A stretch of 38,695 bases of DNA, taken from positions 1 to 38,695 of the forward strand of contig JAHJRX010000035.1 in the NCBI GenBank assembly GCA_018830565.1, read 5' to 3'. This DNA comes from a bacterium (GTDB lineage Bacteria > UBA9089 > JAHJRX01). This document shows, one piece after another, positions 1 to 37,101 of this stretch. The notes under the pieces are model-generated. The model did not search any database, had not been told where the DNA came from, and saw nothing but the letters and a program-made list of their open reading frames with translations. The translations under genes were made by a program, and so were the position numbers. Each line of letters starts with the position of its first letter. Within the stretch, counting starts at the first letter, position 1.

Positions 1-155
1 AGAAAGGTGCATATTCTTCCATTGGATCACCCTTGGAGGAAGTTTAAAATAAACCCATATAAAAGATCATTTTTATCTAATACAAAATAGGACATTTCTA
101 TTTAACGGAAAACAGGACATTTTCATTTTGCTGTTACAGGAGAAAAGATTGGATT

Positions 156-183
156 GGGGTCAGACCTCGAAAGCAGAATTAAC
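156..183. repeat. left terminal inverted repeat (28 bp) of the IS-like unit
   Basis: Exact reverse complement of 1171-1198, read directly from the sequence. Confidence 0.9.
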
Positions 184-1143
184 TATACCCTCTACTTTCT
201 TTTGAAATTCTTTATGTTTGTTTATCTGTTCTTTTACTCGAATACTTGTTTTACCTATTGCAGTCGAAGTTACTCCAAACATCTCACCTATTTTCTTATT
301 ACTCAATCCAGTGTAACTATATAAAATATAAATCGCTACATCCCTGGCTGTCTCCTGCCGAAATCTTCTCCTTTTTATTATTCTATCCTTCTCTACCCCA
401 AATCCATTTATTACTGCATCTAATACCTTTTCAGCAACTTCGTTATCACCCAACCTTCTCTGTTGTGGTAATTCACTGTTTATAACCTTTCTGTTCACAA
501 ACTTCTTCTCTATCCAACTAACAAATTTATCACTACCTAAAACTAATCCATATCTTATCTTTTCTAAAATCCTCTTCTCCTGCCCACACCTCTCCATTAT
601 TAACTGTTGATATTTAATCCGGGCATCTTCTTCACTCTTCCCTAATCCTCTTAATACCTCTTCTCTCAATACCCATTTATGTACTTTCTTTATCCCTGCA
701 TAATCATGATAACTGCTCCATTTATACTCATTTAATTCCTTTACCATTCCTGCCCGAATTGGATTTAAGTGAATATAAAAACTTAAGTTTTCCCAGTAAT
801 TTTCTTCACCTACAAGTATGCTTTTATATCGTCCTTGAAATAAATGTCCGCTTCTGTTATGTCTCCGATTGTAGTAAACACTATAAGATGTTTGTAACCA
901 CTGTATTGCCCTGGAAAGATTTGCCTCTTTAGTACGCAATAATAAATGATAATGATTCCCCATTAGCACAAATGCAAAAATCTCTATCCCAAATTTCTCT
1001 ACAACCTTCTCAAGGTATTCTAAAAAACGATGATAGTCTTCATTAATGGTATATATCTCTCCTTGAGCAACTCCTCTTGACATAACATGATAAACTGCAC
1101 CTTCGTATTGTATTCTCCAAGGTCTTGCCATAATAGTTCTCAT
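160..1143 (-). CDS. Y1 (HUH) tyrosine transposase of the IS200-like / REP-associated (RayT-like) class, fused to a C-terminal DnaA domain-IV-like HTH
   Basis: 327 aa. HUH motif GNHYHLLL. C-terminal segment RDVAIYILYSYTGLSNKKIGEMFGVTSTAIGKTSIRVKEQ resembles the DnaA C-terminal DNA-binding domain (R.IAMYL....S...IG..FG.RDHTTV). The ORF lies between the 28-bp IRs. Confidence 0.7.
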   Translation of the reverse strand: MRTIMARPWRIQYEGAVYHVMSRGVAQGEIYTINEDYHRFLEYLEKVVEKFGIEIFAFVLMGNHYHLLLRTKEANLSRAIQWLQTSYSVYYNRRHNRSGHLFQGRYKSILVGEENYWENLSFYIHLNPIRAGMVKELNEYKWSSYHDYAGIKKVHKWVLREEVLRGLGKSEEDARIKYQQLIMERCGQEKRILEKIRYGLVLGSDKFVSWIEKKFVNRKVINSELPQQRRLGDNEVAEKVLDAVINGFGVEKDRIIKRRRFRQETARDVAIYILYSYTGLSNKKIGEMFGVTSTAIGKTSIRVKEQINKHKEFQKKVEGIVNSAFEV

Positions 1144-1170
1144 AATAACACATCATTCTTATTTTGCCAA

Positions 1171-1198
1171 GTTAATTCTGCTTTCGAGGTCTGACCCC
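1171..1198. repeat. right terminal inverted repeat (28 bp) of the IS-like unit
   Basis: Exact reverse complement of 156-183. Confidence 0.9.
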
Positions 1199-1216
1199 TA
1201 CTATGATAAAAAAAGC

Positions 1217-1245
1217 TTGATTTTAGTTATAAAAAAACATAAGAT
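1217..1245 (+). promoter_or_regulatory. candidate sigma70-like promoter (TTGATT-17-TAAGAT) immediately outside the IS right end, reading into the BioB-like gene
   Basis: TTGATT at 1217-1222, a 17-nt spacer, TAAGAT at 1240-1245. The ATG at 1255 has no Shine-Dalgarno, so the transcript may be leaderless. Hexamers in an AT-rich genome are weak evidence. Confidence 0.25.
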
Positions 1246-1254
1246 AACTTAGAA

Positions 1255-2238
1255 ATGATTGATGAAAGATTAACAAAGATAGCTTTATTAGTTATAAAAG
1301 GTCTTGATTTAGGGATAGATGATGCTCTTTATTTAACTCAAACTCCTTTATTTGAACTTTTATTCTGGGCAAATTACCTTCGGGAAAAATTTAAAGATAA
1401 AAAGATTGATACTTGTAGCATTATCAATGCCAAAAGTGGTAAATGTTCCGAAGACTGTAAGTTTTGTGCTCAATCAGCTCTTTATCAAACCCAAATTCTT
1501 ACGCATCCCTTAGTAGAAGAAAAAAAGATCTTAGCAGAAGCACATCAAGCAAAGCTTGACGGAGCCAAGAGGTTTGGCATCGTAACTAGTGGTAGAAAGC
1601 TTAACTCAAAAGAGATAGAAAGAGTCTGCCAAGCTATCAAATCTCTAAATCAAGAAGGTGAAATTCTTCCTTGTGCTTCTTTAGGCAAGCTCACTTTGGA
1701 ATATATTCATTTCCTTAAGGAAGTAGGCTTAAAAAGATATCATCATAACTTAGAAACTTCAGAAGATTTTTTTTCAAAGCTTTGCTTGAGTCATTCTCAT
1801 GCAGAAAGAGTAGAAACTATTAAATTGGTAAAAGAAGCAGGACTTGAGGTTTGTTCAGGTGGCATTTTTGGGGTAGGAGAGACATGGCAGGATAGGATTA
1901 ATGTTGCTTTCAAGTTACGAGAGTTAAGGGTTGACTCTATTCCCTTAAATTTTCTTAATCCTATTTCTGGTACTCCTTTAAGTAGTATAGAGAGAATAGC
2001 TCCATTTGAGATATTACGAATAATTGCCCTCTTTAGATTTATTCATCCTCAAAGAGATATCAGATTAGGTGGCGGGCGAGATGTTAACCTCAGGGATCTT
2101 CAAGCCTGGATGTATTATGCTGGAGCTAATGGAGTGATGATTGGAAATTACCTCACTACCTCAGGAAGACCACCAGAAGAAGATCTTAGGTTCATCAAAG
2201 ACTTTGAGCTGGAAGTGGGTCTAGAGAGGAAAGATTAA
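1255..2238 (+). CDS. biotin synthase (BioB) family radical SAM protein
   Basis: CSEDCKFCAQS matches the radical-SAM CxxxCxxC motif. BioB-like blocks include YHHNLETS, EVCSGGIFGVGET, LPCASLG and DIRLGGGR. The position equivalent to E. coli BioB Cys97 is Gly (KRFGIVTSGR), so the auxiliary [2Fe-2S] ligand set is incomplete. No bioF/bioA/bioD are in the window. Confidence 0.65.
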   Translation: MIDERLTKIALLVIKGLDLGIDDALYLTQTPLFELLFWANYLREKFKDKKIDTCSIINAKSGKCSEDCKFCAQSALYQTQILTHPLVEEKKILAEAHQAKLDGAKRFGIVTSGRKLNSKEIERVCQAIKSLNQEGEILPCASLGKLTLEYIHFLKEVGLKRYHHNLETSEDFFSKLCLSHSHAERVETIKLVKEAGLEVCSGGIFGVGETWQDRINVAFKLRELRVDSIPLNFLNPISGTPLSSIERIAPFEILRIIALFRFIHPQRDIRLGGGRDVNLRDLQAWMYYAGANGVMIGNYLTTSGRPPEEDLRFIKDFELEVGLERKD

Positions 2239-2242
2239 AGAA

Positions 2243-3067
2243 GTGCCAGAAGAAAAGAGTAAAAAGACAAGGATGGAGATTAAGGAAAAGATAGAGCAGG
2301 TAGAAGTTCTTCTCAAAAAAATGGGTAGTGTTTTAGTAGCTTACTCTGGTGGGGTAGATTCTACACTGGTCATTGAGATAGCTCGTAGGACATTAGGAGA
2401 AAAGGTATTAGCAGTTACTGCTAAATCTCCTCTTTATTCTACAGAGGAGCTTAAAGTAGCAAAAGCTATGGCAAAAAAATTAAAAGTAGCTCATTTGATA
2501 ATCGAAGGAGATGAATTAAATATCCCTGGTTTTGTTGACAATCCTAAAAATAGATGTTATCTTTGTAAAAAAGAATTATTTGAAAAACTTTTTCAAATAG
2601 CTGCCAAATACAAGCTTTCTTATGTTTTAGATGGCTCAAATGTTTCTGATATTTCTGATTTTCGACCAGGTAGGCAAGCAGCTAAAGAGCTTGGTGTCTG
2701 CTCACCTTTAGAAGAAGTAGGCTTGACCAAAGATGAAGTGCGACAGGTATCAAAGATGATGGGTTTATCTACTTACCACAAACCTTCCTCAGCTTGTTTG
2801 GCCTCTCGGTTTCCTTATGGTAAACAAATTAGCTTTGAGACCTTAAAGATGGTAGAGAAAGCAGAAGAATACCTTAGAAGATTAGGTATCTGGCAAGTTC
2901 GAGTAAGACATTATGAAAATCTCTGTCGAATTGAAGTAGAAAGACAAGACTTGCCTATTCTTTTAGCTAAACAAGGGAGAATAGTTGACAAATTTAAGAA
3001 ACTTGGCTACATTTATGTGACTCTCGACTTAGCAGGGTATCGCTCTGGAAGTATGAACGAGGAGTAA
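2243..3067 (+). CDS. larE: LarE-like PP-loop ATP pyrophosphatase / sulfurtransferase (ATP-dependent sulfur transferase family)
   Basis: PP-loop SGGVDST near the N-terminus. An ACLASR-type Cys motif is present at SSACLASRFPYG, plus a CYLCKK pair. Three Cys is compatible with the [4Fe-4S]-type LarE subfamily. Confidence 0.6.
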   Translation: MPEEKSKKTRMEIKEKIEQVEVLLKKMGSVLVAYSGGVDSTLVIEIARRTLGEKVLAVTAKSPLYSTEELKVAKAMAKKLKVAHLIIEGDELNIPGFVDNPKNRCYLCKKELFEKLFQIAAKYKLSYVLDGSNVSDISDFRPGRQAAKELGVCSPLEEVGLTKDEVRQVSKMMGLSTYHKPSSACLASRFPYGKQISFETLKMVEKAEEYLRRLGIWQVRVRHYENLCRIEVERQDLPILLAKQGRIVDKFKKLGYIYVTLDLAGYRSGSMNEE

Positions 3068-3070
3068 AAA

Positions 3071-4150
3071 ATGGCCAAACGAGTGGTAATAGCCATGAGT
3101 GGCGGAGTAGATTCCTCTACCGCCGCCTACTTACTCAAAGAAGCAGGGTATGAGGTGGTGGGTATTACCATGGATCTTCTCCCGTCCAGCTGTAAAATTG
3201 AAAAAGCAGATAGTTGTTGTTCTTTGCAAGCATTTCCTGATGCTCAAGATATAGCTGATCAATTAAAGATTGAATATTATCTCCTTGATTATAAAGAAGA
3301 GTTTGAAAGAGAAGTAGTCAGATATTTTGTGAATGAGTACCTTAATGGTCAGACTCCAAATCCGTGCGTGGTTTGTAATGCCAAAGTAAAGTTTGGTTTA
3401 TTGCTTGATAAAGCTAAACAATTAGGAGCAGATTATTTAGCTACTGGTCATTATGCCAGAGTCTTAAAAAAAGATGGACGGTATGTTATTGAAAAAGGAA
3501 AGGATCTAACCAAGGATCAGTCTTATTTTTTATATCGTCTTTCTCAGTATCAGCTAAAACATCTCCTTATGCCTCTCGGTGAACACAAAAAAGAAGAAGT
3601 AAGAAAGATAGCTTATTCCAGAGGGTTAAAAGTTTATAATAAACCAGAAAGTCAGGAAATATGTTTTATTCCTGATAATCATTATCAGGAGTTTATTAAA
3701 AAGAGATTAGATAAAGATCAAGAGCCTGGTTTAATTTTAGATAAAAGCAATAAGATATTAGGTAGGCATCCAGGGGTAGCTTTTTTTACGATTGGCCAAC
3801 GTAAAGGATTAGGCATTGCTACAGGCAAGCCACTTTATGTCTTGTCTATTGACTCTAAAAAGAATGTTCTGGTAGTTGGCGAAGAAGCTTTATTGTATCG
3901 TCGAGAATTAATAGCTCAGGAAGTAAACTGGATTGCTATGGAAAAGCTGACCGCAGAGATGGAGGTTATGGCTAAGATTCGCTTTCTTCATAAGGAAGCC
4001 GAGGCTATTATTACTCCAATCTTAGATGGAAAAGTAAGGATAAAATTTAAAGAACCACAGCGAGCTATAGCTTGCGGTCAATCAGTAGTCTTTTATCAAG
4101 AGGGGGTGATTACAGGAGGAGGGGTAATTGGAAAAGAAGATACCTCTTGA
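3071..4150 (+). CDS. mnmA: tRNA-specific 2-thiouridylase MnmA
   Basis: N-terminal PP-loop MSGGVDSS. The 359-aa length and overall block pattern are typical of MnmA/TrmU. Confidence 0.8.
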   Translation: MAKRVVIAMSGGVDSSTAAYLLKEAGYEVVGITMDLLPSSCKIEKADSCCSLQAFPDAQDIADQLKIEYYLLDYKEEFEREVVRYFVNEYLNGQTPNPCVVCNAKVKFGLLLDKAKQLGADYLATGHYARVLKKDGRYVIEKGKDLTKDQSYFLYRLSQYQLKHLLMPLGEHKKEEVRKIAYSRGLKVYNKPESQEICFIPDNHYQEFIKKRLDKDQEPGLILDKSNKILGRHPGVAFFTIGQRKGLGIATGKPLYVLSIDSKKNVLVVGEEALLYRRELIAQEVNWIAMEKLTAEMEVMAKIRFLHKEAEAIITPILDGKVRIKFKEPQRAIACGQSVVFYQEGVITGGGVIGKEDTS

Positions 4151-4961
4151 TGATAACGATTTACTCCAGATAAAGATGGAGGCAGAAGTAGAAAGTTTTA
4201 AAATAACGAGAATTAGATTAAAAGAAAAAGAAGAGGTTGAGGACAAAGTAATTAAAGAAACTCCCTTAACTATCTTTCTAAACGGAGAAGAATTAGTAAC
4301 TTTACTCTGCACTCCTTGTCAGCTAATATATTTAGCGATAGGATTTTTAGCTGGTGAGGGTTTTATAAAGAAGAAAGAAGATATCAAGGATATCTCCCTC
4401 GATCAAGAAAGAGGTATCATCAAGGTTGAGGTAGAAGATAGTTTAGAGTTAGTAAAAAAGAGTTTTGCCAAAAGAATGATTACCTCAGGGTGCGGAAAGG
4501 GAACTATATTTTATTCAATTAATGATGTCTTAGGTTCTTCTATCATCCAGAGTAAGATGAAGCTTCATTACTCTGAGGTTTTAAACTTAATGAGAGAATT
4601 TCAAAATAGCTCTCTTTTATTTAAAAAGACTGGTGGTGTTCACAGCTGTGCCTTATGCCAAGATGGAAAGATTCTCAAATTTCAAGAAGATCTTGGTCGA
4701 CATAATGCCTTAGACAAGGTTTTAGGGGAATGCTTCTGGGAAGGAGTTTTTACTTTAGACAAGCTCATCTTGACCAGCGGTAGGATAACTTCAGAAATCT
4801 TACTTAAGGTGGCAAAATGGGAAATTCCAATGATTATTTCTCACGGCGCTCCTACTGACTTGGCCATTAAACTGGCAGAAAAACTTGGCCTAACTCTGGT
4901 AGGCTTTGTGCGTGGGGAAAAGATGAATATTTATACTTATGAAGAAAGAATTTTAATTTAA
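4128..4961 (+). CDS. fdhD: FdhD/NarQ-family sulfur-carrier protein (formate dehydrogenase accessory sulfurtransferase)
   Basis: SGCGKG Cys loop and a GGVHSCAL block. The ORF overlaps the mnmA 3' end by 23 nt; an alternative start is Met16 at 4173. Confidence 0.6.
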   Translation: MEKKIPLDDNDLLQIKMEAEVESFKITRIRLKEKEEVEDKVIKETPLTIFLNGEELVTLLCTPCQLIYLAIGFLAGEGFIKKKEDIKDISLDQERGIIKVEVEDSLELVKKSFAKRMITSGCGKGTIFYSINDVLGSSIIQSKMKLHYSEVLNLMREFQNSSLLFKKTGGVHSCALCQDGKILKFQEDLGRHNALDKVLGECFWEGVFTLDKLILTSGRITSEILLKVAKWEIPMIISHGAPTDLAIKLAEKLGLTLVGFVRGEKMNIYTYEERILI

Positions 4962-4973
4962 AGGAGAAGGGGA

Positions 4974-5879
4974 ATGCAAAAAGATTTAGTGGCCAAGATA
5001 GAAAGTTTAAAAAAGGAGAAAAAGGTGGTTATTTTAGCTCATAACTACCAAAGAGGTGAAGTTCAAGACATTGCTGATTTCGTAGGAGATTCTATCGATC
5101 TTTCCAGGAAAGCAGCTACTACTTCAGCTGAGATTATACTCTTTTGTGGAGTGCTATTTATGGCAGAAGCTGCCAAGATTTTATCTCCAGGGAAAGTAGT
5201 TTTACTACCAGATTTAAAGGCAGGTTGCCCCTTAGCTAATATGATTACTCTTAAAGAACTCCGCCAAAAGAAAAAGGAGTATCCAGGGGCAGTGGTGGTT
5301 TGTTATGTCAACTCAGCCGTAGAGATTAAAGCAGAGTCAGATATATGCTGCACTTCTGCCAATGCAGTAAAAGTAGTAGAGTCAATTCCTCAAGATAAAG
5401 AGATCATCTTCATTCCCGATAAATGGTTAGGAGACTATACTTCCAGAATAGCCAAAAGAAGATTAATCTTATGGGATGGTTATTGTGCTACTCACCTGAA
5501 GATCTTACCAGAAAATATCTTACTTCTTAAGGAACGTTATCCAAAAGCTGAAATCATTGTTCATCCAGAATGTACTCGTGATGTAATAGAGATGGCTGAT
5601 CAAGCCCTAAGTACTATGGGCATAGTTAAATGGGTCAAGGAATCAAAAGCCACGGAATTTATTATTGGAACCGAAAATGGCATCATCCATCGATTAAAGA
5701 AAGAAAACCCAGAGAAGAGATTCTTCCCAGCTTCAGTCTTAGCTGAATGTCCTAATATGAAATTAACTACCTTAGAAAAAGTTTTGTGGGCATTAGAAGA
5801 GATGAAATACCAAATAGAAATTGAGGAAGATATTCGCCTAAAAGCAAAGAAAGCCGTGGAGAGAATGCTTGAGATCTAA
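4974..5879 (+). CDS. nadA: quinolinate synthase NadA
   Basis: N-terminal HNYQRGEVQDIADFVGDS. Three conserved cluster Cys are present (AGCPLA, GYCATH, AECPNM). Length is 301 aa, and a GGAGAAGGGGA ribosome-binding site sits upstream. Confidence 0.85.
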   Translation: MQKDLVAKIESLKKEKKVVILAHNYQRGEVQDIADFVGDSIDLSRKAATTSAEIILFCGVLFMAEAAKILSPGKVVLLPDLKAGCPLANMITLKELRQKKKEYPGAVVVCYVNSAVEIKAESDICCTSANAVKVVESIPQDKEIIFIPDKWLGDYTSRIAKRRLILWDGYCATHLKILPENILLLKERYPKAEIIVHPECTRDVIEMADQALSTMGIVKWVKESKATEFIIGTENGIIHRLKKENPEKRFFPASVLAECPNMKLTTLEKVLWALEEMKYQIEIEEDIRLKAKKAVERMLEI

Positions 5880-6092
5880 TCAAGCAAAACAAGTTGGCTA
5901 AAAAACATTACTTGAAATCTCAGATTGTTGTTTATGCTCCTAATAGAATCTACAAAGAAAAAACCTTTAAATTTAAAAACTTACCAGTTGGTTAATTTGG
6001 TAGGGTTGTCATTATTTATTATCCTGACAATGATAGTAACCTATCAAGATATAGTCAGACTTATAACTTGAATAACAAACCAAGCAAAAAAG

Positions 6093-6140
6093 GTCCAGCC
6101 AAGAGGGAATAGAAATCTCTTGGCCGATAAGAAAAATATA
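6093..6140 (-). terminator. candidate rho-independent terminator for the minus-strand SPFH operon
   Basis: On the minus strand, stem GGCCAAGAG, an 11-nt loop, then CTCTTGGCC, followed by TGGACCTTTTTTG. The T-run starts 6 nt after the stem, about 85 nt downstream of the 6209 stop. Confidence 0.35.
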
Positions 6141-6208
6141 TCATGAAAAATAAATGCCAACATTAATGGCAACCAACGAGATTGAGCCTTAAAATTTCAT
6201 GATCAAGG

Positions 6209-6487
6209 TTAATCCTTGTCAAATGAGGATACCTTGATCATTTCTATGGGTAGTTCTCTACCACAATACTTGCAAACTACGGCATTTTCTTTAATGATCT
6301 CTGTACAGTAGAAGCATGCTTTAGTGTATCCTTTAGATGCCAAAGGTGGAAGGACAATAATAACCGCTATAAGTAACGGAGCAATTACACACAAGAAAAA
6401 CCACAAGATGGGGCTATGTCCCTTTTTTTTAGCGATAATACTTCCTACGATACCTACGATAATAAACAGAATAACAACTCTAAACAA
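6209..6487 (-). CDS. small membrane protein: two predicted TM helices plus a C-terminal zinc-ribbon (CxxC-x13-CxxC)
   Basis: 92 aa. Hydrophobic N-terminal two-thirds, then CFYCTEIIKENAVVCKYCGRE. TTG start with a weak Shine-Dalgarno. Lies immediately downstream of the SPFH gene on the same strand. Confidence 0.45.
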   Translation of the reverse strand: MFRVVILFIIVGIVGSIIAKKKGHSPILWFFLCVIAPLLIAVIIVLPPLASKGYTKACFYCTEIIKENAVVCKYCGRELPIEMIKVSSFDKD

Positions 6488-6518
6488 GGAATTCTCTACT
6501 TTTCTTATGATTATTTGT

Positions 6519-7376
6519 TTATCTTCTCTCTATTTCACCTGCACTAATAAATGGCACAGCGCCACTACCCGTAACTTGGGGAAGTATTCCGTTCCATTTA
6601 TCTATAGCTTTGAGGTTGGCCTCTATCTTTCTCAGTTCTATCAGGTCTGGTGTAATATTTACTTTCTGTAACCTTAATGACTCTGCCTCGGCTGTGGCTG
6701 CGGTAATCTTCTGCTCTGCCTCGATCTTTATCCTATCCAAGTCTCTCTTTGCCTTTAGGGCAAGTTGTTCTGCGGTTTGCTTTGACTCAATAGCTTCCGT
6801 AAATATCTCGGAGAAACTAAATGAGACAATAGAAAACGCATCAACGGCTATATTATACGCTAATAGTCTTTCAGCAAGTTCTTCTTTTATGGAATCGCTT
6901 ACTGCTGCCCTCTTGGTGATAAGCTCTTCTGCTGAATACTTGGCTGACACAGCTTTCATTACCTCTTGTATGGCCGGGTCTATAATCCGTTCCTTGAATT
7001 CTATCCCCAGAGTTTGATAGACAATATTTGCCTTATCAGGTATGACATGATAGTTGAGCGCCACCGCTGAACTCACATCCTGAAGATCAGCCGAGGCAGA
7101 TGCAGCATCTGTCCCTGTCTTCTGAACCTTAACATCCATCAGGACAACCTTCTGCATTATAGGTATCCTAAAATGCAGTCCTTCTCCAAGCACATCTTTC
7201 CCGACAGCGCCAAAATTAAGAACAATTCCTCTTTCGCCTGGCCCAACCATGGCCCATGGATGGAAAAACAAAAAGCCAATCAGAATTGCTCCAATAATTA
7301 CAGCCAGCCTCATAGGACCTCCCTTCATTGCAGACTGCATGGCCTCCTTAGCCCTATAAATATCTCTTTCATCCAT
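6519..7376 (-). CDS. SPFH/band-7 (prohibitin/HflC-like) membrane protein
   Basis: N-terminal TM helix, SPFH core (GERGIVLNFGAVGKDVLGEGLHFRIP) and a C-terminal coiled-coil Ala/Glu-rich tail. A GAGGAGG Shine-Dalgarno precedes the ATG. Confidence 0.8.
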   Translation of the reverse strand: MDERDIYRAKEAMQSAMKGGPMRLAVIIGAILIGFLFFHPWAMVGPGERGIVLNFGAVGKDVLGEGLHFRIPIMQKVVLMDVKVQKTGTDAASASADLQDVSSAVALNYHVIPDKANIVYQTLGIEFKERIIDPAIQEVMKAVSAKYSAEELITKRAAVSDSIKEELAERLLAYNIAVDAFSIVSFSFSEIFTEAIESKQTAEQLALKAKRDLDRIKIEAEQKITAATAEAESLRLQKVNITPDLIELRKIEANLKAIDKWNGILPQVTGSGAVPFISAGEIERR

Positions 7377-7452
7377 TATACTACCTCCTCTTTAAAAATT
7401 TTAGTTAACGGCTGGTGGATAAAAGAAGCCCAGCCCTTTTGACCTGTGGATT

Positions 7453-7653
7453 TTATATTTCGACATATTTCGATAAAATTCTTTTAAAATCACTGTTAGC
7501 TAAATTTAATTCTTTAATAATATACCAATGTTTAAATATTGTCCACTTAATTTTTTCTTTTGAGATTATTTTTGAGATTATAAGATCAATTCCTCTATCT
7601 ATTTCCTCTGGTAATACTCTGGTAATAATTTTCATTTTGGCAGGCTGTGGCAC
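7453..7653 (-). CDS. hypothetical small protein (66 aa), weakly supported
   Basis: Open frame with composition similar to neighbouring genes. GTG start without a clear Shine-Dalgarno. Sits in a 390-bp otherwise non-coding gap. Confidence 0.2.
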   Translation of the reverse strand: MPQPAKMKIITRVLPEEIDRGIDLIISKIISKEKIKWTIFKHWYIIKELNLANSDFKRILSKYVEI

Positions 7654-7668
7654 AAGCCAAAATATTAT

Positions 7669-7697
7669 TTGACAATTTCTATAAAAGCAATTACCAT
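7669..7697 (+). promoter_or_regulatory. candidate sigma70-like promoter for the radical SAM-GT2 operon (TTGACA-17-TACCAT)
   Basis: TTGACA at 7669-7674, a 17-nt spacer, TACCAT at 7692-7697, about 70 nt upstream of the TTG start at 7770. An AAAGGGG ribosome-binding site lies upstream of that start. Confidence 0.3.
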
Positions 7698-7769
7698 CTC
7701 ATTTAAGTTAACTTATTTACTTTAAATTTACTTTAAAATTTTGTCTTTTAAAAATAAAGGGGTCTTTAA

Positions 7770-9530
7770 TTGAAGGTAGTTCTTGCTAATTCAGTAGGCA
7801 TAGATAAAGATGGTTATTATATTGTTCATTCTCCAAGTAGGTGGTCATTTTCTGCTAAAGATTATAAAGAGCAATTTACTTACTATCCATGGGAATTAGC
7901 TTACACTTCAAGTCTTTTGAAAAGAGAGACTAATAATAAGATTAAACTTCTCGATGGCTGCTTAGAAAAATGGGATTTTAAGAGATATCTTGAAGTACTT
8001 AAAGAAGAAAAGCCAGATTGGCTAATCATGGAACCATCGTCCCGGACTTATGATGAAGATTTGAGATTAGCTTTGGCTTGCAAAGAAGTGTTGGGCACAA
8101 AGTTAGTCTTTTGTGGTCAACATGCCATCGCTTATCCTGATGAAGTATTAAAAGCCGGGATTGATTATGTTGGTATTGGAGAGTATGAATATACTGTCTT
8201 AGAACTAATTCAAGGAAAGAATCCTTCTGGTATCCTTGGTCTTTATCCCAATCAGAGAAGACCTCTTTTAAACTTTAATACTCTTCCTTGGCCTGAAGAT
8301 GATGATGTGGCCCGGATAAAATATCATGAACCAAATTGTGAATATCAAGAGATCCAACTATATGCCACTAGAGGATGTCCTTTGCAATGTGTCTTTTGTG
8401 TCTGTGGGAATCTTTACTATCTAAAACCTAATTGGAGACCACGAAATCCTAAGGAGGTAGTAGCTGAACTTAAATACCTTAGGAATAAATATCCCCAAAT
8501 GGAAGGTGGGTTTTTTGATGAAGAGGTTCATAATGCTTCAAAAGCTTATATTCTTGAACTTTCTAAAGCTATAGTCGAAGCAGGATTAAATGACCTTCAT
8601 TATACCGCTATGTGTGGTTATTGGAATCTCGATCAAGAAATGCTTGCTGCTATGCGGAAAGCTGGTTATTATAAATTAAGGATTGGCATAGAAACCGCCA
8701 GCGCTAAGATTGCTGAATGCATTGGGCTAAAAAGTAAGTTTAACATAGAAAGACTGTATCAAGTTTTAGAAGAAGCAAAAGAAGCGGGAATGAAGATTTA
8801 CGGAACCTTTCTTTTTGGAGCCTTAGGTTCTATCAAGGAAGAAGACGAAAAGACCGCTCGTTTAATTCAAGACATAACCAGCAAGGATCTTTTATGTGAC
8901 TTGCAAATCTCTATTTGCACCCCTCAACCAGGGACTCCTTTTTATAAGATCGCCCAAGAAAAAGGATATTTAATTAATGAAGACTTAAGAAAGTTTGATG
9001 GAGCTCAATCTGCGGTAATAAGTTACCCGGCATATTCCTCAAATGATATTTATCAAACTTTTCGTTATGCTTTTCAATGCTATGATCAAGGCTTAGAAGA
9101 AAGAAAGAGGATAAAATTCCTACCTAAACTAATAAATAATTTACAAATTCATCTTTTGGATAACATCAAGAAGGTTTTACTTTTACGATCTGGAAGAATG
9201 TGGCAAGTAAATTTGGGAATGGAAGCGCTAAAGAAGATATTTCCAGACTCAAAGATAGATATTTTATGCCAAGCAAATATAAAGAATGTGATAGAAGACA
9301 ATCTTAATGTCAATAAGATTTATGTTTATGGAGATGGTTTTATCAACTTAGATACTTTTGATAAGTTATTGTTACCACAACTTACCAATGAAGATTTTGA
9401 TTTAGTGGTCGTCTTGTATAATAATTCAACAGGAAGAGGTTTTCAAGAAGTAAATAGATTAGCTATGTCTTTAAATCCTAAAAAGATCATCGCTATTAAT
9501 CCTGACGGAGAGATAGAGCAGGTGAAATAG
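7770..9530 (+). CDS. B12-binding-domain radical SAM enzyme (class B type) with a C-terminal GT9 N-domain-like Rossmann module
   Basis: Rossmann-like B12-binding region at the N-terminus, then radical-SAM CPLQCVFC (CxxxCxxC) in YATRGCPLQCVFCVCGN. The C-terminal ~120 aa KVLLLRSGRMWQVNLGMEALKKIFPDSKIDIL...VYGD resemble the N-terminal acceptor half of GT9 heptosyltransferases (K[IV]L[IV]IR..A.GD....P.L..L...FPDAEIDWL). TTG start. Confidence 0.7.
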   Translation: MKVVLANSVGIDKDGYYIVHSPSRWSFSAKDYKEQFTYYPWELAYTSSLLKRETNNKIKLLDGCLEKWDFKRYLEVLKEEKPDWLIMEPSSRTYDEDLRLALACKEVLGTKLVFCGQHAIAYPDEVLKAGIDYVGIGEYEYTVLELIQGKNPSGILGLYPNQRRPLLNFNTLPWPEDDDVARIKYHEPNCEYQEIQLYATRGCPLQCVFCVCGNLYYLKPNWRPRNPKEVVAELKYLRNKYPQMEGGFFDEEVHNASKAYILELSKAIVEAGLNDLHYTAMCGYWNLDQEMLAAMRKAGYYKLRIGIETASAKIAECIGLKSKFNIERLYQVLEEAKEAGMKIYGTFLFGALGSIKEEDEKTARLIQDITSKDLLCDLQISICTPQPGTPFYKIAQEKGYLINEDLRKFDGAQSAVISYPAYSSNDIYQTFRYAFQCYDQGLEERKRIKFLPKLINNLQIHLLDNIKKVLLLRSGRMWQVNLGMEALKKIFPDSKIDILCQANIKNVIEDNLNVNKIYVYGDGFINLDTFDKLLLPQLTNEDFDLVVVLYNNSTGRGFQEVNRLAMSLNPKKIIAINPDGEIEQVK

Positions 9531-16898: not shown

Positions 16899-18092
16899 AT
16901 GATTTCTTGTCGCGCTAGTAAATTATCTCCTTCAGCTACTTTAGCTATTACCTCTAAAGTAAACCAGATGAAAGCCCAAGGTATTGATGTGATTGGATTT
17001 GGTGCTGGTGAACCTGATTTTGATACCCCTCAAAAGATAAAAGAAGCTGCAATTATTGCTATCAAGCAAGGCCAGACTAAATATACGCCCACTTCTGGAT
17101 TACCAAAACTTAAAGAAGCCATCTGTTACAAGTTTAAGACTGAGAATAATTTAAACTACACTCCAGAAGAAGTCATTGTCTCTTGTGGAGCAAAACATTC
17201 TCTCTTTAATATCATCTTAGCTCTTTGCAATAAAGATGATCAGGTGATTATTCCTGCTCCTTACTGGGTAAGTTATCCTGAAATGGTTAAATTAGCCGAA
17301 GCGGTGCCTGTATTGGTAAATACTTTAGAAGAGAATAACTTTAAACTTACTCCTGAGGCCTTTAGAGAAAATATTACCAAGAAGACTAAAGCGATAATTA
17401 TTAATTCTCCTTCTAATCCGACGGGAATTTTATACGAAAAAGAAGAACTAAAAGAATTAGCCGAGATAGCCTTAGAAAATAATATTTTTATCATCTCTGA
17501 TGAAATTTATGAAAAATTAGTCTATGAAGATAAGAAGTTTGTGAGTATCGCTTCACTTGGAAAAGAGATTAAGTATCTTACCATTACCGTAAATGGAGTT
17601 TCAAAGGCATACTCAATGACCGGCTGGAGAATTGGCTATACCGCGGCTAATAGATATATCATTCAAGCTATGGCTAACATTCAAGACCACTCTACTTCTT
17701 GCCCTAACACCATCGCTCAACATGCAACCATAGCAGCTTTAGAAGAAGACCAAGCTAGTATAGAAGAAATGCGCTTAGAATTTGACAAGCGAAGAAAGTA
17801 TATGGTAGAAAGACTCAATAATATTATGGGTGTGAGTTGTGTTATTCCTTACGGCGCTTTTTATGTTTTTCCTAATATTTTAGGCTTATTTGGCACCAAA
17901 TATAAAGACTATCATATCGATAGGGCTAACTCATTAGCTGAATATCTATTAGAAGAAGTTAAAGTAGCTGTAGTTCCAGGAGAAAGCTTTGGAAGCGCTC
18001 AAAATATTAGACTATCTTATGCCACCTCAATGAAGAATATCATTGAAGGTTTAACCAGGATCGAAGAAGCCGTAGCTAAGCTTACTAAATAG
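16899..18092 (+). CDS. class I/II PLP-dependent aminotransferase (aspartate aminotransferase-like)
   Basis: GFGAGEPDFDTP N-terminal block and the PLP-Lys context NGVSKAYSMTGWRIGY. 397 aa. Confidence 0.75.
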   Translation: MISCRASKLSPSATLAITSKVNQMKAQGIDVIGFGAGEPDFDTPQKIKEAAIIAIKQGQTKYTPTSGLPKLKEAICYKFKTENNLNYTPEEVIVSCGAKHSLFNIILALCNKDDQVIIPAPYWVSYPEMVKLAEAVPVLVNTLEENNFKLTPEAFRENITKKTKAIIINSPSNPTGILYEKEELKELAEIALENNIFIISDEIYEKLVYEDKKFVSIASLGKEIKYLTITVNGVSKAYSMTGWRIGYTAANRYIIQAMANIQDHSTSCPNTIAQHATIAALEEDQASIEEMRLEFDKRRKYMVERLNNIMGVSCVIPYGAFYVFPNILGLFGTKYKDYHIDRANSLAEYLLEEVKVAVVPGESFGSAQNIRLSYATSMKNIIEGLTRIEEAVAKLTK

Positions 18093-22888: not shown

Positions 22889-23764
22889 ATGTCCCTTTTA
22901 GTTTATTTAGATGGTAAGTTAGTCCCCAAAGAAGAAGCAAAGATATCTGTCTTTGATCATGGTCTTCTCTATGGTGATGGTATCTTTGAAGGAATTCGTT
23001 CATATAATGGCCGAGTCTTTAAATTAGAGGAGCATTTAAAACGACTATCTGATTCCGCTAAGGCCATTAACTTAAATATTCCTTTAAGCTTAAAAGAGCT
23101 TAAAGAAGCGGTGCTTTTAACATTAAGATCTAATAATTTAAAGAATGCTTATATTCGCTTAGTGGTGACAAGAGGAGTAGGTGATTTAGGCTTGGATCCT
23201 CAAAAATGTCCTCAGCCAACCATATTTATCATTACTGATAAGATTGTCTTATATTCAGAAGAGTTTTATGAGCATGGGTTGGAAATAATTACGGTGCCTA
23301 CGAGGAGAAATATTCCTGAAGCAGTGAATCCTTGTATCAAGTCTTTAAACTACCTTAATAATATCTTAGCTAAGATAGAAGCTACTAATGCTGGCTTTTT
23401 AGAAGCAGTGATGTTAAATAGTGAAGGCTTGGTTACTGAATGCACCGGTGAAAATATTTTTATTGTCAAAGATAGTTGTCTTGTTACTCCTCCTTGTTGG
23501 GTAGGTGCTTTAAGAGGCATTACCAGAGAAGTAGTCTTAGGCTTATCTTTAAAACTAAAGATTGAGGCTAAGGAAGATGTTTTAACGCGTTATGATTTAT
23601 ATACCGCCGAGGAAATGTTTTTAACCGGTACAGCCGCTGAGATTATTCCAATAATAACGGTTGACGGAAGAATGATAGGAAATGGAAAGCCAGGTAAGAT
23701 TACGACCAGCTTAAGAAATGCCTTTACAGAACTAACTCAAAATGAAGGAACGGTTGTTGCTTAA
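22889..23764 (+). CDS. ilvE: class IV aminotransferase (branched-chain amino acid aminotransferase-like)
   Basis: DHGLLYGDGIFEGIRSYNGRVF N-terminal block. 291 aa. AAAGGAG ribosome-binding site. Confidence 0.7.
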   Translation: MSLLVYLDGKLVPKEEAKISVFDHGLLYGDGIFEGIRSYNGRVFKLEEHLKRLSDSAKAINLNIPLSLKELKEAVLLTLRSNNLKNAYIRLVVTRGVGDLGLDPQKCPQPTIFIITDKIVLYSEEFYEHGLEIITVPTRRNIPEAVNPCIKSLNYLNNILAKIEATNAGFLEAVMLNSEGLVTECTGENIFIVKDSCLVTPPCWVGALRGITREVVLGLSLKLKIEAKEDVLTRYDLYTAEEMFLTGTAAEIIPIITVDGRMIGNGKPGKITTSLRNAFTELTQNEGTVVA

Positions 23765-23781
23765 AATTATGGTTAAAATTT

Positions 23782-23883
23782 TGTCAGCCTTTAAGTATCA
23801 GTCTATGGGGAATTTCAAGAGAAGATGCCAAGCCACTGCTACTTTAATTCCTGAGACAAAGCTTCCGGCTGACATCTGACGGC
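23782..23883 (+). promoter_or_regulatory. structured leader upstream of mcsA, carrying an 8-bp inverted repeat TGTCAGCC/GGCTGACA 76 nt apart
   Basis: TGTCAGCC at 23782-23789 pairs with GGCTGACA at 23866-23873. The 164-nt gap before mcsA is long for this compact genome. No CtsR heptad operator or CIRCE element was found. Confidence 0.3.
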
Positions 23884-23928
23884 TAAACGTTTACCTGTTT
23901 TGTTTTCTTACTACTTGGAGGTTAGATA

Positions 23929-24429
23929 GTGCTTTGTGATAATTGCCAGAAGGAGAAAGCTTCCCTTCATTACACTGAAGTTATTAATAATAGCTTAACA
24001 GAGATCCATTTATGTATGTCCTGTGCTCAAAAGAAAGGCTTGGATGATTCTTTTTCTCTTTCTTTTGCTAATCTCTTTACTGACCTAAGTTCTGACCTAA
24101 GTGAAGTTGGGGATATTAAAATTTCTTCTAAAAAGAAAGAAGGATGTAAGTGTTGTGGACTAACCCTTAATGACTTTAAAAAATTAGGTCTTTTTGGTTG
24201 TAGTGAGTGTTACGAAACCTTCTCTGCCAAGATTGAAAATATTTTGCAAAAAATTCATGGGGCTACTCATCACACCGGAAAAATACCTCGTCATATTTCT
24301 AAAGAGATCTCTTCCAAAAGAGAGATTATTAAATTGAGAGAAAAACTACAAAAAACAATAAAATTAGAAAAGTATGAAGAAGCTGCTAAAATAAGGGATA
24401 AACTAAAAAAATTGGAAGGAATAATTTAG
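23929..24429 (+). CDS. mcsA: McsA (protein-arginine kinase activator; zinc-finger plus UVR domain)
   Basis: Four CxxC pairs (CDNC, CMSC, CKCC, CSEC) and a C-terminal UVR motif YEEAAKIRDKLKKLE. GTG start with a GGAGG ribosome-binding site. Confidence 0.75.
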   Translation: MLCDNCQKEKASLHYTEVINNSLTEIHLCMSCAQKKGLDDSFSLSFANLFTDLSSDLSEVGDIKISSKKKEGCKCCGLTLNDFKKLGLFGCSECYETFSAKIENILQKIHGATHHTGKIPRHISKEISSKREIIKLREKLQKTIKLEKYEEAAKIRDKLKKLEGII

Positions 24430-24438
24430 TTAAAGTAG

Positions 24439-25473
24439 ATGAATACTTTTAGCTGTGATTGGTTAAAGAACAATACTCCTCACCGCGATATAGTGATCAG
24501 TAGCCGCATTCGTTTAGCCAGGAATGTAAACAAGATTCCCTTTCCTCATTGGGCGAAAAAAGAAAGTTTAAGAAAAGTGGTCTCTTTGGTCGAAGAAGCC
24601 ACAAAAAAGTGCCCTTATTTAATTAACTCTAAATATTATGATTTAGATAAATTAACCTCATTAGAAAAGCAGTACTTAATAGAAAGACATCTTATTAGTT
24701 TAGAACATGCCAATAGTAAAAATGGTCTGCTCATTGTTAGCCAGAAAGAGATGGGTAGCCTTATGGTCAACGAAGAAGATCATCTAAGAATTCAAAGCTT
24801 GGATGCAGGTTTAAACCTTTTCGAAGCTTGGGATCTTATTAATAAAATTGACGATTCTCTTTCCGAGGTATTGGATTACGCTATTTCTCCTCAATGGGGA
24901 TATTTAACGGCTTGTCCTACTAATGTAGGAACTGGAATAAGGGCTTCAATAATGATTCATCTACCAGCTCTTATCTTAACTGGACAAATAAATAAAGTAT
25001 TAAAAGGAGTTTCTCAATTAGGATTAACGATTAGAGGTTTATATGGAGAAGGGAGTGAAATCTTAGGAAATTTATTTCAAATATCTAATCAGATCACCTT
25101 AGGACGATCAGAAGAAGAGACCATTGATCATGTGGAAAAGATTTCAAAACAAATTATTAATTATGAAAAAAATGCCCAAGAATTGTTAATTAAAGAATCG
25201 GCTATTCAATTAGAAGATAAAACATTTAGAGCTTACGCTACCTTAACCCATGCTCGAGTTATTGATTCTAACGAAGCCATAAATCTTCTTTCTGTCGTAA
25301 GATTAGGGGTAAGCAGTGGCATATTAAAGGATATCTCCTTGGAAATTTTAAATGAACTTCTTGTTATTACTCAACCAGCTCATATTCAAAAATTTTTTAA
25401 CACTCCTCTTACTCCAGAACAGAGAGATGTAAAACGAGCAGAATTAATCAGAGAAAAATTTTCTATCACTTAA
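24439..25473 (+). CDS. mcsB: protein-arginine kinase McsB (phosphagen/guanidino kinase family)
   Basis: CPTNVGTGIRASIMIHLP matches the phosphagen-kinase active-site Cys block. 344 aa. Sits between mcsA and clpC. Confidence 0.8.
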   Translation: MNTFSCDWLKNNTPHRDIVISSRIRLARNVNKIPFPHWAKKESLRKVVSLVEEATKKCPYLINSKYYDLDKLTSLEKQYLIERHLISLEHANSKNGLLIVSQKEMGSLMVNEEDHLRIQSLDAGLNLFEAWDLINKIDDSLSEVLDYAISPQWGYLTACPTNVGTGIRASIMIHLPALILTGQINKVLKGVSQLGLTIRGLYGEGSEILGNLFQISNQITLGRSEEETIDHVEKISKQIINYEKNAQELLIKESAIQLEDKTFRAYATLTHARVIDSNEAINLLSVVRLGVSSGILKDISLEILNELLVITQPAHIQKFFNTPLTPEQRDVKRAELIREKFSIT

Positions 25474-25533
25474 AAGTTATTTTTAAATTTCAAATTAGCT
25501 AAAAACAATATCTTAAATTTGGAGGTAATATAT

Positions 25534-30900: not shown

Positions 30901-31007
30901 AAAAATTATACCAATCTATTATTGCCACTTACAAAGATAGTCAAGAAGCAGAAAAGTCAAAAGCATGTTTAGATATTTTAGAGAAAAAAGCTACAAAATT
31001 ACCATAA
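27978..31007 (+). CDS. large periplasmic tetratricopeptide-repeat protein (~25 TPR units) with an N-terminal signal/anchor
   Basis: 1009 aa. Recurrent 34-residue pattern (..A.Y.LG..Y....Y..A...F...I..FP.S). Hydrophobic N-terminus [17 protein letters not shown]. Its ATG overlaps the clpC TGA (ATGA). Confidence 0.8.
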
Positions 31008-37038: not shown

Positions 37039-37101
37039 ATTGAAATTTTCAGATTCCCTTGTGTGTGTCCGATTTCTGCACAGGTCGAAAAACTTGAACA
37101 T

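What the first reader, a model, noticed from the sequence alone, without database searches (positions are those of the whole stretch)
1255..5879. Co-directional cluster of five Fe-S/sulfur-transfer enzymes: BioB-like radical SAM, LarE-like, MnmA, FdhD, NadA
Five consecutive, tightly spaced or overlapping genes all deal with sulfur mobilisation or Fe-S chemistry, and no bioF/A/D or larA/B/C partner is in the window. The BioB homolog lacks the residue equivalent to E. coli Cys97, an auxiliary [2Fe-2S] ligand, so it may use a different auxiliary cluster or substrate. The LarE homolog has three Cys (CYLC...ACLASR), like the [4Fe-4S]-dependent LarE subtype that thiolates pyridine carboxylates. It sits two genes from NadA, which makes the pyridine dicarboxylate quinolinate. 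Together these suggest a pathway that installs sulfur on a pyridine-carboxylate or related small molecule, fed by a PP-loop/FdhD persulfide relay. Ordinary biotin and NAD synthesis would not need this combination.
Basis: partly seen in the sequence, partly recalled or inferred. Interest (0 to 1): 0.6.

Follow-up and report, generated by a model that had tools for sequence, protein, structure and literature searches.

The report
Operon of sulfur-dependent cofactor enzymes
Five tightly packed genes encode ordinary, recognisable enzymes (biotin synthase, LarE, MnmA, FdhD, NadA) that all depend on the cell's sulfur and iron-sulfur supply; they are not a new pathway, but following up the BioB-LarE pair led to natural LarE-biotin synthase fusion proteins in other bacteria, which could point to the unknown sulfur donor of anaerobic biotin synthases.

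Summary
Five co-directional genes at 1255-5879 are BioB, LarE, MnmA, FdhD and NadA, and each clears its curated NCBIfam cut-off. Gaps of 3-25 nt suggest one operon. BioB does lack the E. coli Cys97 equivalent (Gly108). It carries the published Type II pattern (Cys54/Cys140/Cys200/Arg270, Ser142, His163), so this is the known 'Type G' variant and not evidence of a new substrate. LarE is the known [4Fe-4S] type and keeps its substrate-binding residues. The five-gene unit is not conserved. The LarE-MnmA pairing recurs in all five nearest LarE relatives. The closest relative carries FdhD::NadA (fused), MnmA and LarE together. BioB is the newcomer: its four nearest homologs lie in unrelated contexts. 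Across 80 LarE loci from many phyla, the neighbours are LarC/LarB or sulfur-supply genes, MnmA and NadA. I read the cluster as an island of enzymes that use the same sulfur and Fe-S supply, each working in its own pathway. One new lead emerged: LarE-BioB adjacency, and fusions in both orders, recur in Kiritimatiellia. That could bear on the unidentified sulfide supplier of Type II BioB.

The parts
1255..2238 (+). bioB: biotin synthase, Type II-like with Gly at the E. coli Cys97 position ('Type G')
   Evidence: TIGR00433 388.7 bits against cut-off 225; Radical_SAM and BATS domains. Best solved-structure matches are Type II BioB 8VDW (307 bits) and 8VCW (251 bits), against E. coli 1R30 (184 bits). 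C64/C68/C71 radical SAM motif; C54, C140, C200, R270, S142, H163 match B. obeum C52, C138, C198, R268, S140, H161; G108 matches S106 (PMC10813225).
2243..3067 (+). larE: PP-loop ATP-dependent sulfur insertase of the [4Fe-4S] (CXXC...C) type; an alternative start is ATG 2273
   Evidence: TIGR00268 327.1 bits against 150. SGGVDS at 35-40; C105/C108/C185 invariant in 22 homologs. S188/R220/R222 align with L. plantarum LarE S180/R212/R214. The motif is as described for T. maritima LarE (PMC9283937).
3071..4150 (+). mnmA: tRNA 2-thiouridine(34) synthase, with Cys at the E. coli Asp99 position (C99-x-x-C102 ... C198)
   Evidence: NF001138 447.2 bits against 284. Alignment to E. coli MnmA 2DER shows NPCVVCN against NPDILCN.
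4176..4961 (+). fdhD: sulfurtransferase for the molybdenum cofactor of formate dehydrogenase-type enzymes (mechanical ORF from TTG 4128)
   Evidence: TIGR00129 227.5 bits against 140.9. Best solved structure is 2PW9, with the SGCG loop conserved. Several of the closest relatives have an N-terminal extension that looks like MobA, or a C-terminal one that looks like MobB, judged by eye only.
4974..5879 (+). nadA: quinolinate synthase
   Evidence: NF006878 433.5 bits against 294. Cys85, Cys171 and Cys259 are spaced as the three cluster ligands of characterised NadA (ligand numbering from my own knowledge).
1144..1254 (.). 111-nt intergenic region upstream of bioB; presumed promoter region of the operon
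   Evidence: It is the only sizeable gap on the 5' side. No Rfam match at E <= 0.1 in 1-8000. The promoter scan found no more sites than in shuffled sequence, so the promoter is inferred, not shown.
160..1143 (-). Divergent IS200/REP-type tyrosine transposase gene with a DnaA-C-like HTH; marks the left boundary
   Evidence: Y1_Tnp 50.8 bits plus Bac_DnaA_C 33.7 bits; REP_Tyr_transpos 69 bits, below its cut-off of 80. In relative L003, bioB instead follows mcsA-mcsB-clpC, which lie at 23929-27981 in this window.

Best explanation
The five genes form one operon of ordinary enzymes that each work in their own pathway. They share one dependency: all draw on the cell's cysteine-desulfurase/sulfide and Fe-S supply. 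BioB makes biotin from dethiobiotin, most likely using a sulfide carried on an auxiliary [4Fe-5S] cluster as in Type II BioB. LarE uses a sulfide bound to its [4Fe-4S] cluster to thiolate the nicotinate-derived precursor of the nickel-pincer cofactor. MnmA thiolates U34 of tRNA. FdhD passes sulfur to the molybdenum cofactor. NadA, a [4Fe-4S] enzyme, makes quinolinate, which is also upstream of LarE's substrate. Shown: gene identities, active-site residues, tight spacing, and which adjacencies are conserved. Inferred: co-transcription, the shared sulfur donor, and selection for co-regulation. The lineage-conserved core is LarE-MnmA, with FdhD-NadA in the closest relative; BioB joined recently.
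For: Identities and residues. Spacing of 3-25 nt with Shine-Dalgarno-like sequences at the junctions. LarE-MnmA pairing in all five near LarE relatives: L008, L094/L095, L096, L097. L097 carries FdhD::NadA, MnmA and LarE. Census of 78 LarE loci from many phyla: LarC 17, LarB 14, CysK-like 9, Rrf2 7, MnmA 7, NadA 6, ThiF 6, cysteine desulfurase 5, BioB 2, FdhD 0. L020 shows LarE-Rrf2-cysteine desulfurase-NifU-permease-MnmA-NadA. L008 shows HcyBio-NIL/ferredoxin-Thi4-LarE-x-MnmA-NikR. Published precedent: Thi4 neighbourhoods recurrently contain sulfur-relay genes plus users, including LarE, FdhD, MnmA and BioB (PMC13325395). IscS persulfide recharges [4Fe-4S] LarE in vitro (PMC9283937). In a Brocadia locus NadA lies between LarC and LarE. 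BioB's four nearest homologs lie in unrelated contexts.
Against: No cysteine desulfurase, IscU, ThiS/ThiF or CysK gene lies in the window, so the donor is not part of this cluster. No promoter, terminator or regulatory RNA could be demonstrated. The five-gene arrangement was seen only in this organism. LarB, LarC and LarA were not found in the window or in the near-relative loci, so LarE's canonical role here is unproven. The census loci are not phylogenetically independent, so the counts overstate the number of independent events.
Confidence: 0.62

Rival explanations
1. Direct LarE-BioB partnership: the [4Fe-4S] LarE protein loads or regenerates the extra sulfide on the auxiliary cluster of the Type II-like BioB, or the two dock on the same donor as a complex. 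Under this reading the BioB-LarE adjacency in the window is functional rather than regulatory.
For: LarE::BioB fusions form about 9 clusters at 90% identity (582-641 aa, down to 53% identity), and one cluster has the reverse order, BioB::LarE, implying two independent fusion events. Unfused LarE-BioB pairs overlap in L062 (14 nt) and L100/L101 (4 nt). CysK sits directly upstream in L062 and L088-L090. The BioB partners are Gly-type (one Ala-type), like the window's. The authors of the Type II BioB paper state that the factor supplying the sulfide is still missing. The two papers I read that mention both proteins do not report this link.
Against: The fusions and most adjacencies come from one class (Kiritimatiellia). 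Only 2 of 80 LarE loci and 0 of 4 nearest BioB loci show the pairing. The fused LarE domains keep the residues needed for the canonical substrate. LarEs from lar and non-lar contexts intermix in the tree. L099 has CysK-BioB without LarE. The published neighbourhood search on 100 Type II genomes found no helper. A shared sulfur donor explains the fusions equally well.
Confidence: 0.15
2. Coincidence: five unrelated housekeeping genes were brought together by rearrangement (a transposase gene lies next door), with no selective reason for the arrangement.
For: The five-gene unit was seen only in this organism. BioB lies elsewhere in relatives. FdhD was never near LarE in 80 loci from other lineages. 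Gene order differs in L097.
Against: LarE-MnmA is paired in all five near relatives. The same four genes are together, though rearranged, in L097, and two of them are fused there. LarE lies near NadA in 6 of 80 loci (about 4 lineages) and near MnmA in 7 of 80 (about 6 lineages), where roughly 0.5 of 80 would be expected for a 20-kb window in a 3-Mb genome (the expectation is my estimate).
Confidence: 0.15
3. One reading: a dedicated new pathway in which a BioB-like radical SAM enzyme and a LarE-like enzyme install sulfur on quinolinate or another pyridine carboxylate, fed by an MnmA/FdhD persulfide relay.
For: LarE chemistry does thiolate a pyridine dicarboxylate nucleotide. LarE-NadA adjacency recurs. 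LarE-BioB coupling recurs. No canonical lar or bio partners are in the window.
Against: BioB scores 388.7 bits as BioB, against 55 for PylB and 66 for HmdB, and it keeps every Type II active-site residue. MnmA and FdhD are full-length equivalogs of enzymes with known, different acceptors. Several close FdhD relatives carry extra domains that look like MobA/MobB by eye. The unit is not conserved.
Confidence: 0.05

Closest known systems
Type II biotin synthase with an auxiliary [4Fe-5S] cluster (Blautia obeum and Veillonella parvula BioB; Lachowicz et al. 2024, PMC10813225; PDB 8VCW, 8VDW)
   Same: Best solved-structure matches. Cys at the E. coli Ser43 position. All three Cys ligands, the stacking Arg, and the Ser/His pair proposed to hold the extra sulfide are conserved. 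The source organism has low G+C and belongs to an uncultured lineage whose nearest named relatives are Candidatus Desantisbacteria.
   Different: Gly108 replaces the Ser106 that defines Type II. This is the 'Type G' motif the paper lists but did not characterise. Among the 120 closest homologs, 76 are Cys43/Gly97 type and 20 are Cys43/Ser97 type.
[4Fe-4S]-dependent LarE of Thermotoga maritima (Chatterjee et al. 2022, PMC9283937)
   Same: SGGxDS PP-loop, the CXXC...C cluster motif, and the third Cys shifted one residue from L. plantarum Cys176. The residues that bind the substrate phosphate are conserved.
   Different: No larB, larC or larA nearby. The neighbours are bioB and mnmA instead.
Sulfur-relay and sulfur-user gene neighbourhoods described around prokaryotic Thi4 (PMC13325395), and the Rrf2-cysteine desulfurase-IscU-MnmA type operons
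   Same: Several sulfur-using enzymes (LarE, FdhD, MnmA, BioB) are co-located. The nearest relative L008 even includes Thi4 and HcyBio.
   Different: The window's cluster contains users only. No desulfurase, scaffold, ThiS/ThiF or CysK gene is present.
lar operon (larA-larB-larC-larE) for the nickel-pincer nucleotide cofactor
   Same: LarE is an equivalog-level member. NadA supplies the pyridine precursor upstream of LarB's substrate NaAD. In Brocadia (L060) NadA sits with LarC and LarE.
   Different: LarA, LarB and LarC are absent from the window and from the near-relative loci. Only about 20% of the 78 LarE loci have LarB or LarC within 10 kb.

Membership tests
Biotin synthase BioB (TIGR00433) | Radical SAM CX3CX2C motif plus BATS domain, and a whole-protein score above the curated cut-off and above rival radical SAM families | tested here: met
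   C64/C68/C71; Radical_SAM 77 bits and BATS 89.5 bits; TIGR00433 388.7 against 225. PylB 55 against 348; HmdB 66 against 321; HydE not among the listed hits.
Type I BioB ([2Fe-2S] auxiliary cluster) | Ligands equivalent to E. coli Cys97, Cys128, Cys188 and Arg260 | tested here: not met
   Gly108 is at the Cys97 position. The other three are present (C140, C200, R270).
Type II BioB ([4Fe-5S] auxiliary cluster) | Cys at the E. coli Ser43 position, plus Cys138, Cys198, Arg268, Ser140 and His161 (B. obeum numbering) | tested here: met
   C54, C140, C200, R270, S142 and H163, from the alignment to 8VCW and 8VDW (PMC10813225).
Type II BioB ([4Fe-5S] auxiliary cluster) | Ser at the E. coli Cys97 position (the motif used to define Type II) | tested here: not met
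   Gly108, which is the 'Type G' motif of the same paper. That residue is not a cluster ligand in the Type II structures.
Biotin synthase BioB | Converts dethiobiotin to biotin; bioA/bioD/bioF or a dethiobiotin source present in the genome | not testable with these tools
   No bio genes in the 38.7 kb window. The rest of the genome could not be searched.
LarE, [4Fe-4S]-dependent type (TIGR00268) | PP-loop SGGxDS, the CXXC...C motif, and residues that bind the substrate phosphate | tested here: met
   SGGVDS at 35-40; C105/C108/C185; S188/R220/R222 aligned to L. plantarum S180/R212/R214; 327.1 bits against 150.
LarE, [4Fe-4S]-dependent type | Works with LarB and LarC to make the nickel-pincer cofactor for a LarA-family enzyme | tested here: inconclusive
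   None in the window or in the near-relative loci. LarEs with and without LarB/LarC neighbours intermix in the tree.
MnmA tRNA 2-thiouridine synthase | PP-loop, the two catalytic Cys (E. coli C102 and C199), and the three-domain architecture | tested here: met
   SGGVDS at 10-15; C102 and C198; all three Pfam domains; 447.2 bits against 284. Cys99 replaces E. coli Asp99.
FdhD sulfurtransferase | FdhD/NarQ fold scoring above the cut-off, and a conserved Cys loop | tested here: met
   227.5 bits against 140.9. The SGCG loop (Cys122 in the 277-aa ORF) aligns with 2PW9. The second Cys of the E. coli CxxC loop is absent, as in 2PW9; the E. coli motif is from my own knowledge.
FdhD sulfurtransferase | Associated with a molybdopterin enzyme or with molybdenum-cofactor genes | tested here: inconclusive
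   None in the window. Some close relatives carry MobA-like or MobB-like extensions, judged by eye. In L097 a Molydop_binding gene lies about 2.9 kb downstream on the opposite strand.
NadA quinolinate synthase | NadA fold scoring above the cut-off, and three Cys ligands for the [4Fe-4S] cluster | tested here: met
   433.5 bits against 294; Cys85, Cys171 and Cys259. No nadB or nadC in the window.
Sulfur-relay / sulfur-user gene island | Co-location of several sulfur-using enzymes with sulfur-generating or carrier genes (desulfurase, IscU, ThiS/ThiF, CysK) | tested here: inconclusive
   Four sulfur users plus an Fe-S enzyme are present, but no generator or carrier gene is in the window. Such genes do accompany LarE in L009, L017, L020, L024 and L065.

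The most novel reading that the evidence does not exclude
The [4Fe-4S] LarE protein is the missing partner that delivers or regenerates the extra sulfide on the auxiliary cluster of Type II-like biotin synthases, at least in some anaerobes. Under this reading the BioB-LarE pair in this window and the LarE::BioB and BioB::LarE fusions of Kiritimatiellia are its genomic signature.
Probability: 0.15. Interest if true: 0.8.

Novelty: new member of a known kind. Interest (0 to 1): 0.4.

Why it matters
As a gene cluster it is ordinary. It adds one more example of sulfur-using enzymes being grouped together, and it shows that the 'missing Cys97' is the already published anaerobic BioB pattern. What could matter is the side result. 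How biotin synthase obtains and renews its sulfur is a long-standing question, and for Type II BioB the discoverers state that the supplier of the sulfide is still unknown. Natural LarE-BioB fusions, formed in both orders and kept over deep divergence, give a concrete and cheap experiment: express one fusion and count the turnovers.

Tried and rejected
(1) Five-gene conservation, from the BioB side: the four nearest homologs on long contigs have none of the other four genes. (3) The promoter scan found no more sites than in shuffled sequence. Terminator-like sites were more numerous than in shuffles, but none lies just after nadA on the + strand. Rfam found nothing in 1-8000. Operon boundaries therefore rest on spacing alone. 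(4) I asked whether LarEs with lar neighbours and LarEs with sulfur-supply neighbours form separate clades, which would have suggested a new function. An NJ tree without support values shows them intermixed, so I dropped the idea of a distinct non-lar LarE subfamily. (5) I considered that the BioB-like protein might be HydE, PylB, HmdB or lipoyl-synthase-like; the scores reject this. (6) I considered 16899-18092 as a hidden BioF; it best matches aspartate aminotransferase models. (7) FdhD::NadA as a general fusion: only one of the top 150 representative clusters (P0509) has it, so it is lineage-specific. (8) The 475-530 aa BioB proteins among the fusion-search hits are not LarE fusions; their Cys-rich N-terminal domain has no Pfam match. 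(9) I did not run structure prediction on the fusion. The tool returns no coordinates, so the distance between the two clusters could not have been measured.


Full report
OBSERVATION. The window has five co-directional ORFs at 1255-2238, 2243-3067, 3071-4150, 4128/4176-4961 and 4974-5879. Each clears the curated cut-off of an NCBIfam equivalog model: BioB 388.7 bits (cut-off 225), LarE 327.1 (150), MnmA 447.2 (284), FdhD 227.5 (140.9) and NadA 433.5 (294). Pfam agrees. Gaps are 4, 3, about 25 and 12 nt, with Shine-Dalgarno-like sequences at the junctions, so a single operon is likely. No promoter, terminator or regulatory RNA could be demonstrated. The same DNA recurs at 100% identity in a Logan assembly and at 99.6% in a JGI metagenome, so it is not a chimera. 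None of the ORFs of at least 120 aa in the 38.7 kb window is a bio or lar gene.

THE BioB. Gly108 sits at the E. coli Cys97 position (RFGIVTSG). This is already explained in the literature. Lachowicz et al. 2024 (PMC10813225) showed that anaerobes use 'Type II' BioB. In Type II, the Cys moves to the E. coli Ser43 position and the auxiliary cluster is a [4Fe-5S] cluster bound by Cys52, Cys138 and Cys198, with Arg268 stacking on it; Ser140 and His161 sit near the extra sulfide. The paper also lists Gly, Ala and Asp variants at the 97 position ('Type G' and so on). The window's BioB matches the two Type II crystal structures best (8VDW 307 bits and 8VCW 251 bits, against E. coli 1R30 at 184 bits). 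It has C54, C140, C200, R270, S142 and H163 at exactly those positions. Only the non-ligand Ser106 is replaced by Gly. Among its 120 closest homologs, 76 are Cys43/Gly97 type, 20 Cys43/Ser97 and 17 Cys43/Cys97. HydE, PylB and HmdB are excluded by score. Nothing points to a different substrate.

THE OTHER FOUR.
- LarE has the SGGVDS PP-loop and the CXXC...C motif (C105, C108, C185), invariant in 22 homologs. This is the motif that binds the [4Fe-4S] cluster in T. maritima LarE, which is recharged by IscS persulfide (PMC9283937). S188, R220 and R222 align with the substrate-phosphate-binding residues S180, R212 and R214 of L. plantarum LarE.
- MnmA has Cys at the E. coli Asp99 position, giving it a CXXC...C arrangement as well.
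- FdhD's closest relatives include five proteins with an N-terminal extension that looks like MobA, and one with a MobB-like C-terminus. I judged these by eye from the sequences and did not scan them. If correct, they fit its ordinary role with the molybdenum cofactor.
- NadA is a standard quinolinate synthase.

IS THE NEIGHBOURHOOD CONSERVED?
- From the BioB side, no. The four nearest homologs on long contigs (60-66% identity) have none of the other genes nearby, and three are followed by a short-chain dehydrogenase. In L003, bioB follows mcsA-mcsB-clpC. In this window that block lies at 23.9-28.0 kb, while bioB sits beside a transposase gene. BioB therefore moved here recently.
- From the LarE side, the LarE-MnmA pairing holds in all five near relatives: L008, L094/L095, L096 and L097.
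- The closest relative, L097 (69% LarE identity), has FdhD, NadA, MnmA and LarE together in a different order. There FdhD and NadA form one uninterrupted 564-aa ORF. A representative of that fusion (P0509) was the only one among the 150 best FdhD clusters.
- L008 reads HcyBio-NIL/ferredoxin-Thi4-LarE-x-MnmA-NikR, which is another set of sulfur-inserting enzymes.

BROADER CENSUS. I fetched 80 LarE-centred loci from reference genomes of many phyla, called genes, clustered the neighbours and annotated the clusters. Within 10 kb of LarE, in 78 usable loci, the counts were:
- LarC 17, LarB 14
- CysK-like 9, Rrf2 7, ThiF 6, cysteine desulfurase 5
- MnmA 7, NadA 6, a ThiI-like PP-loop protein 4
- BioB 2, FdhD 0

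For a 20-kb window in a 3-Mb genome I would expect about 0.5 of 80 by chance (my estimate). MnmA (about 6 lineages) and NadA (about 4 lineages) are therefore enriched even after allowing for related loci. L020 reads LarE-Rrf2-cysteine desulfurase-NifU-permease-MnmA-NadA. L012 reads MnmA-LarE-NadA. L060 (Brocadia) reads LarC-TPR-NadA-LarE. An NJ tree, without support values, intermixes LarEs from lar contexts and from sulfur-supply contexts; the window's LarE is sister to L008. A 2026 study of Thi4 neighbourhoods reports the same kind of grouping of sulfur-relay genes with users, including LarE, FdhD, MnmA and BioB (PMC13325395).

INTERPRETATION. The best reading (about 0.6) is an operon of ordinary enzymes that share a dependence on cysteine-desulfurase/sulfide sulfur and Fe-S clusters, grouped for co-regulation. 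The LarE-NadA link also fits the known route from quinolinate through NaAD to the nickel-pincer cofactor. The identities, residues and conservation pattern are shown. Co-transcription, the shared donor and LarE's canonical role in this genome are inferred. Pure coincidence is unlikely for the LarE/MnmA/FdhD/NadA core but cannot be excluded for BioB (about 0.15).

AN UNEXPECTED LEAD. Both LarE loci that had BioB nearby were informative. L067 encodes a 594-aa LarE::BioB fusion (LarE half 319.8 bits, BioB half 349.3 bits). L062 reads CysK-LarE-BioB with overlapping genes. A search with the fusion found about nine further LarE::BioB clusters (582-641 aa, down to 53% identity; where a source names the organism it is Kiritimatiellia) and one cluster in the reverse order, BioB::LarE (P0247). 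That implies two independent fusion events. The fused LarE domains keep the CXXC...C motif and the Arg pair. The BioB domains are Gly-type, with one Ala-type. I examined two unfused Kiritimatiellia BioBs. One has LarE overlapping it by 4 nt (L100/L101). The other has CysK overlapping it with no LarE (L099). CysK also precedes the fusion in L088-L090. The Type II BioB authors searched neighbourhoods, co-transfer and co-expression for the supplier of the cluster-bound sulfide and state that all attempts failed. Only four papers in the searchable library mention both proteins, and the two relevant ones I read do not report this link; subscription-only literature is not covered. The BioB-LarE pair in this window is an independent occurrence in another lineage. 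I put the probability that LarE directly services BioB at about 0.15. A shared sulfur donor explains the fusions as well, the pairing is absent from most BioB and LarE loci, and the LarE domains look canonical.

LIMITS. The rest of this genome could not be searched, so the presence of larA/B/C, bioA/D/F, nadB/C and a desulfurase is unknown. My gene calls in the fetched loci are heuristic. The tree has no support values.

Noticed in passing
L067:1644-3428; P0241-P0250; P0247; L062:660-2433; L100:5177-6984: Natural LarE::BioB fusion proteins (about 9 clusters, down to 53% identity) and one reverse-order BioB::LarE cluster. Where a source names the organism it is Kiritimatiellia, and the samples are mostly gut or rumen metagenomes. 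Unfused LarE-BioB pairs with overlapping genes also occur. CysK often sits directly upstream.
   Followed up: partly
L097:713-2407; P0509: An in-frame FdhD::NadA fusion (564 aa) in the closest relative of this cluster. Only one of the 150 best FdhD representative clusters has it. There is no obvious biochemical reason for the link.
   Followed up: partly
L008:53-6290: The nearest genome relative has HcyBio, NIL-ferredoxin, Thi4, LarE, an unannotated 191-aa protein, MnmA and NikR in a row. This is a second kind of island of sulfur-inserting enzymes, and it sits beside a nickel regulator.
   Followed up: partly
L003:8001-9717; L005:154-1858; L006:8001-9694: In three of the four nearest BioB homologs, bioB is followed immediately (overlapping in two of them) by a short-chain dehydrogenase (adh_short/KR). 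This is a conserved pair and may relate to pimelate supply.
   Followed up: no
P0276, P0277, P0280-P0282, P0284, P0286: BioB proteins of 475-530 aa with a Cys-rich N-terminal domain of about 200 aa (CxxC...CxxC, zinc-ribbon-like) that has no Pfam match.
   Followed up: partly
window 160-1143 (-): A 327-aa protein joining an IS200/REP-type tyrosine transposase domain to a DnaA-C-like helix-turn-helix. Y1 transposase genes also occur in relatives' loci (L006, L007, L094).
   Followed up: no
window 22889-27981: An Aminotran_4-mcsA-mcsB-clpC block is syntenic with relative L003, where bioB follows clpC. Here a 1009-aa TPR protein follows instead, which documents the relocation of bioB.
   Followed up: partly
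window 7770-9530 (+) and 35521-37101 (-): Two B12-binding radical SAM proteins score far below every curated cut-off (HpnJ-like 157 bits against 578; BchE-like 159 bits against 481). The first is followed by a family-2 glycosyltransferase. Their functions are unknown.
   Followed up: no
window 27978-31007: A 1009-aa protein made of 12 YbgF/CpoB-like TPR units, followed by a 572-aa protein with only a weak resemblance to TonB-dependent receptors.
   Followed up: no
P0361, P0363, P0364, P0381, P0390, P0416: [quoted passage not shown] I judged this by eye only and did not scan them against family models.
   Followed up: no
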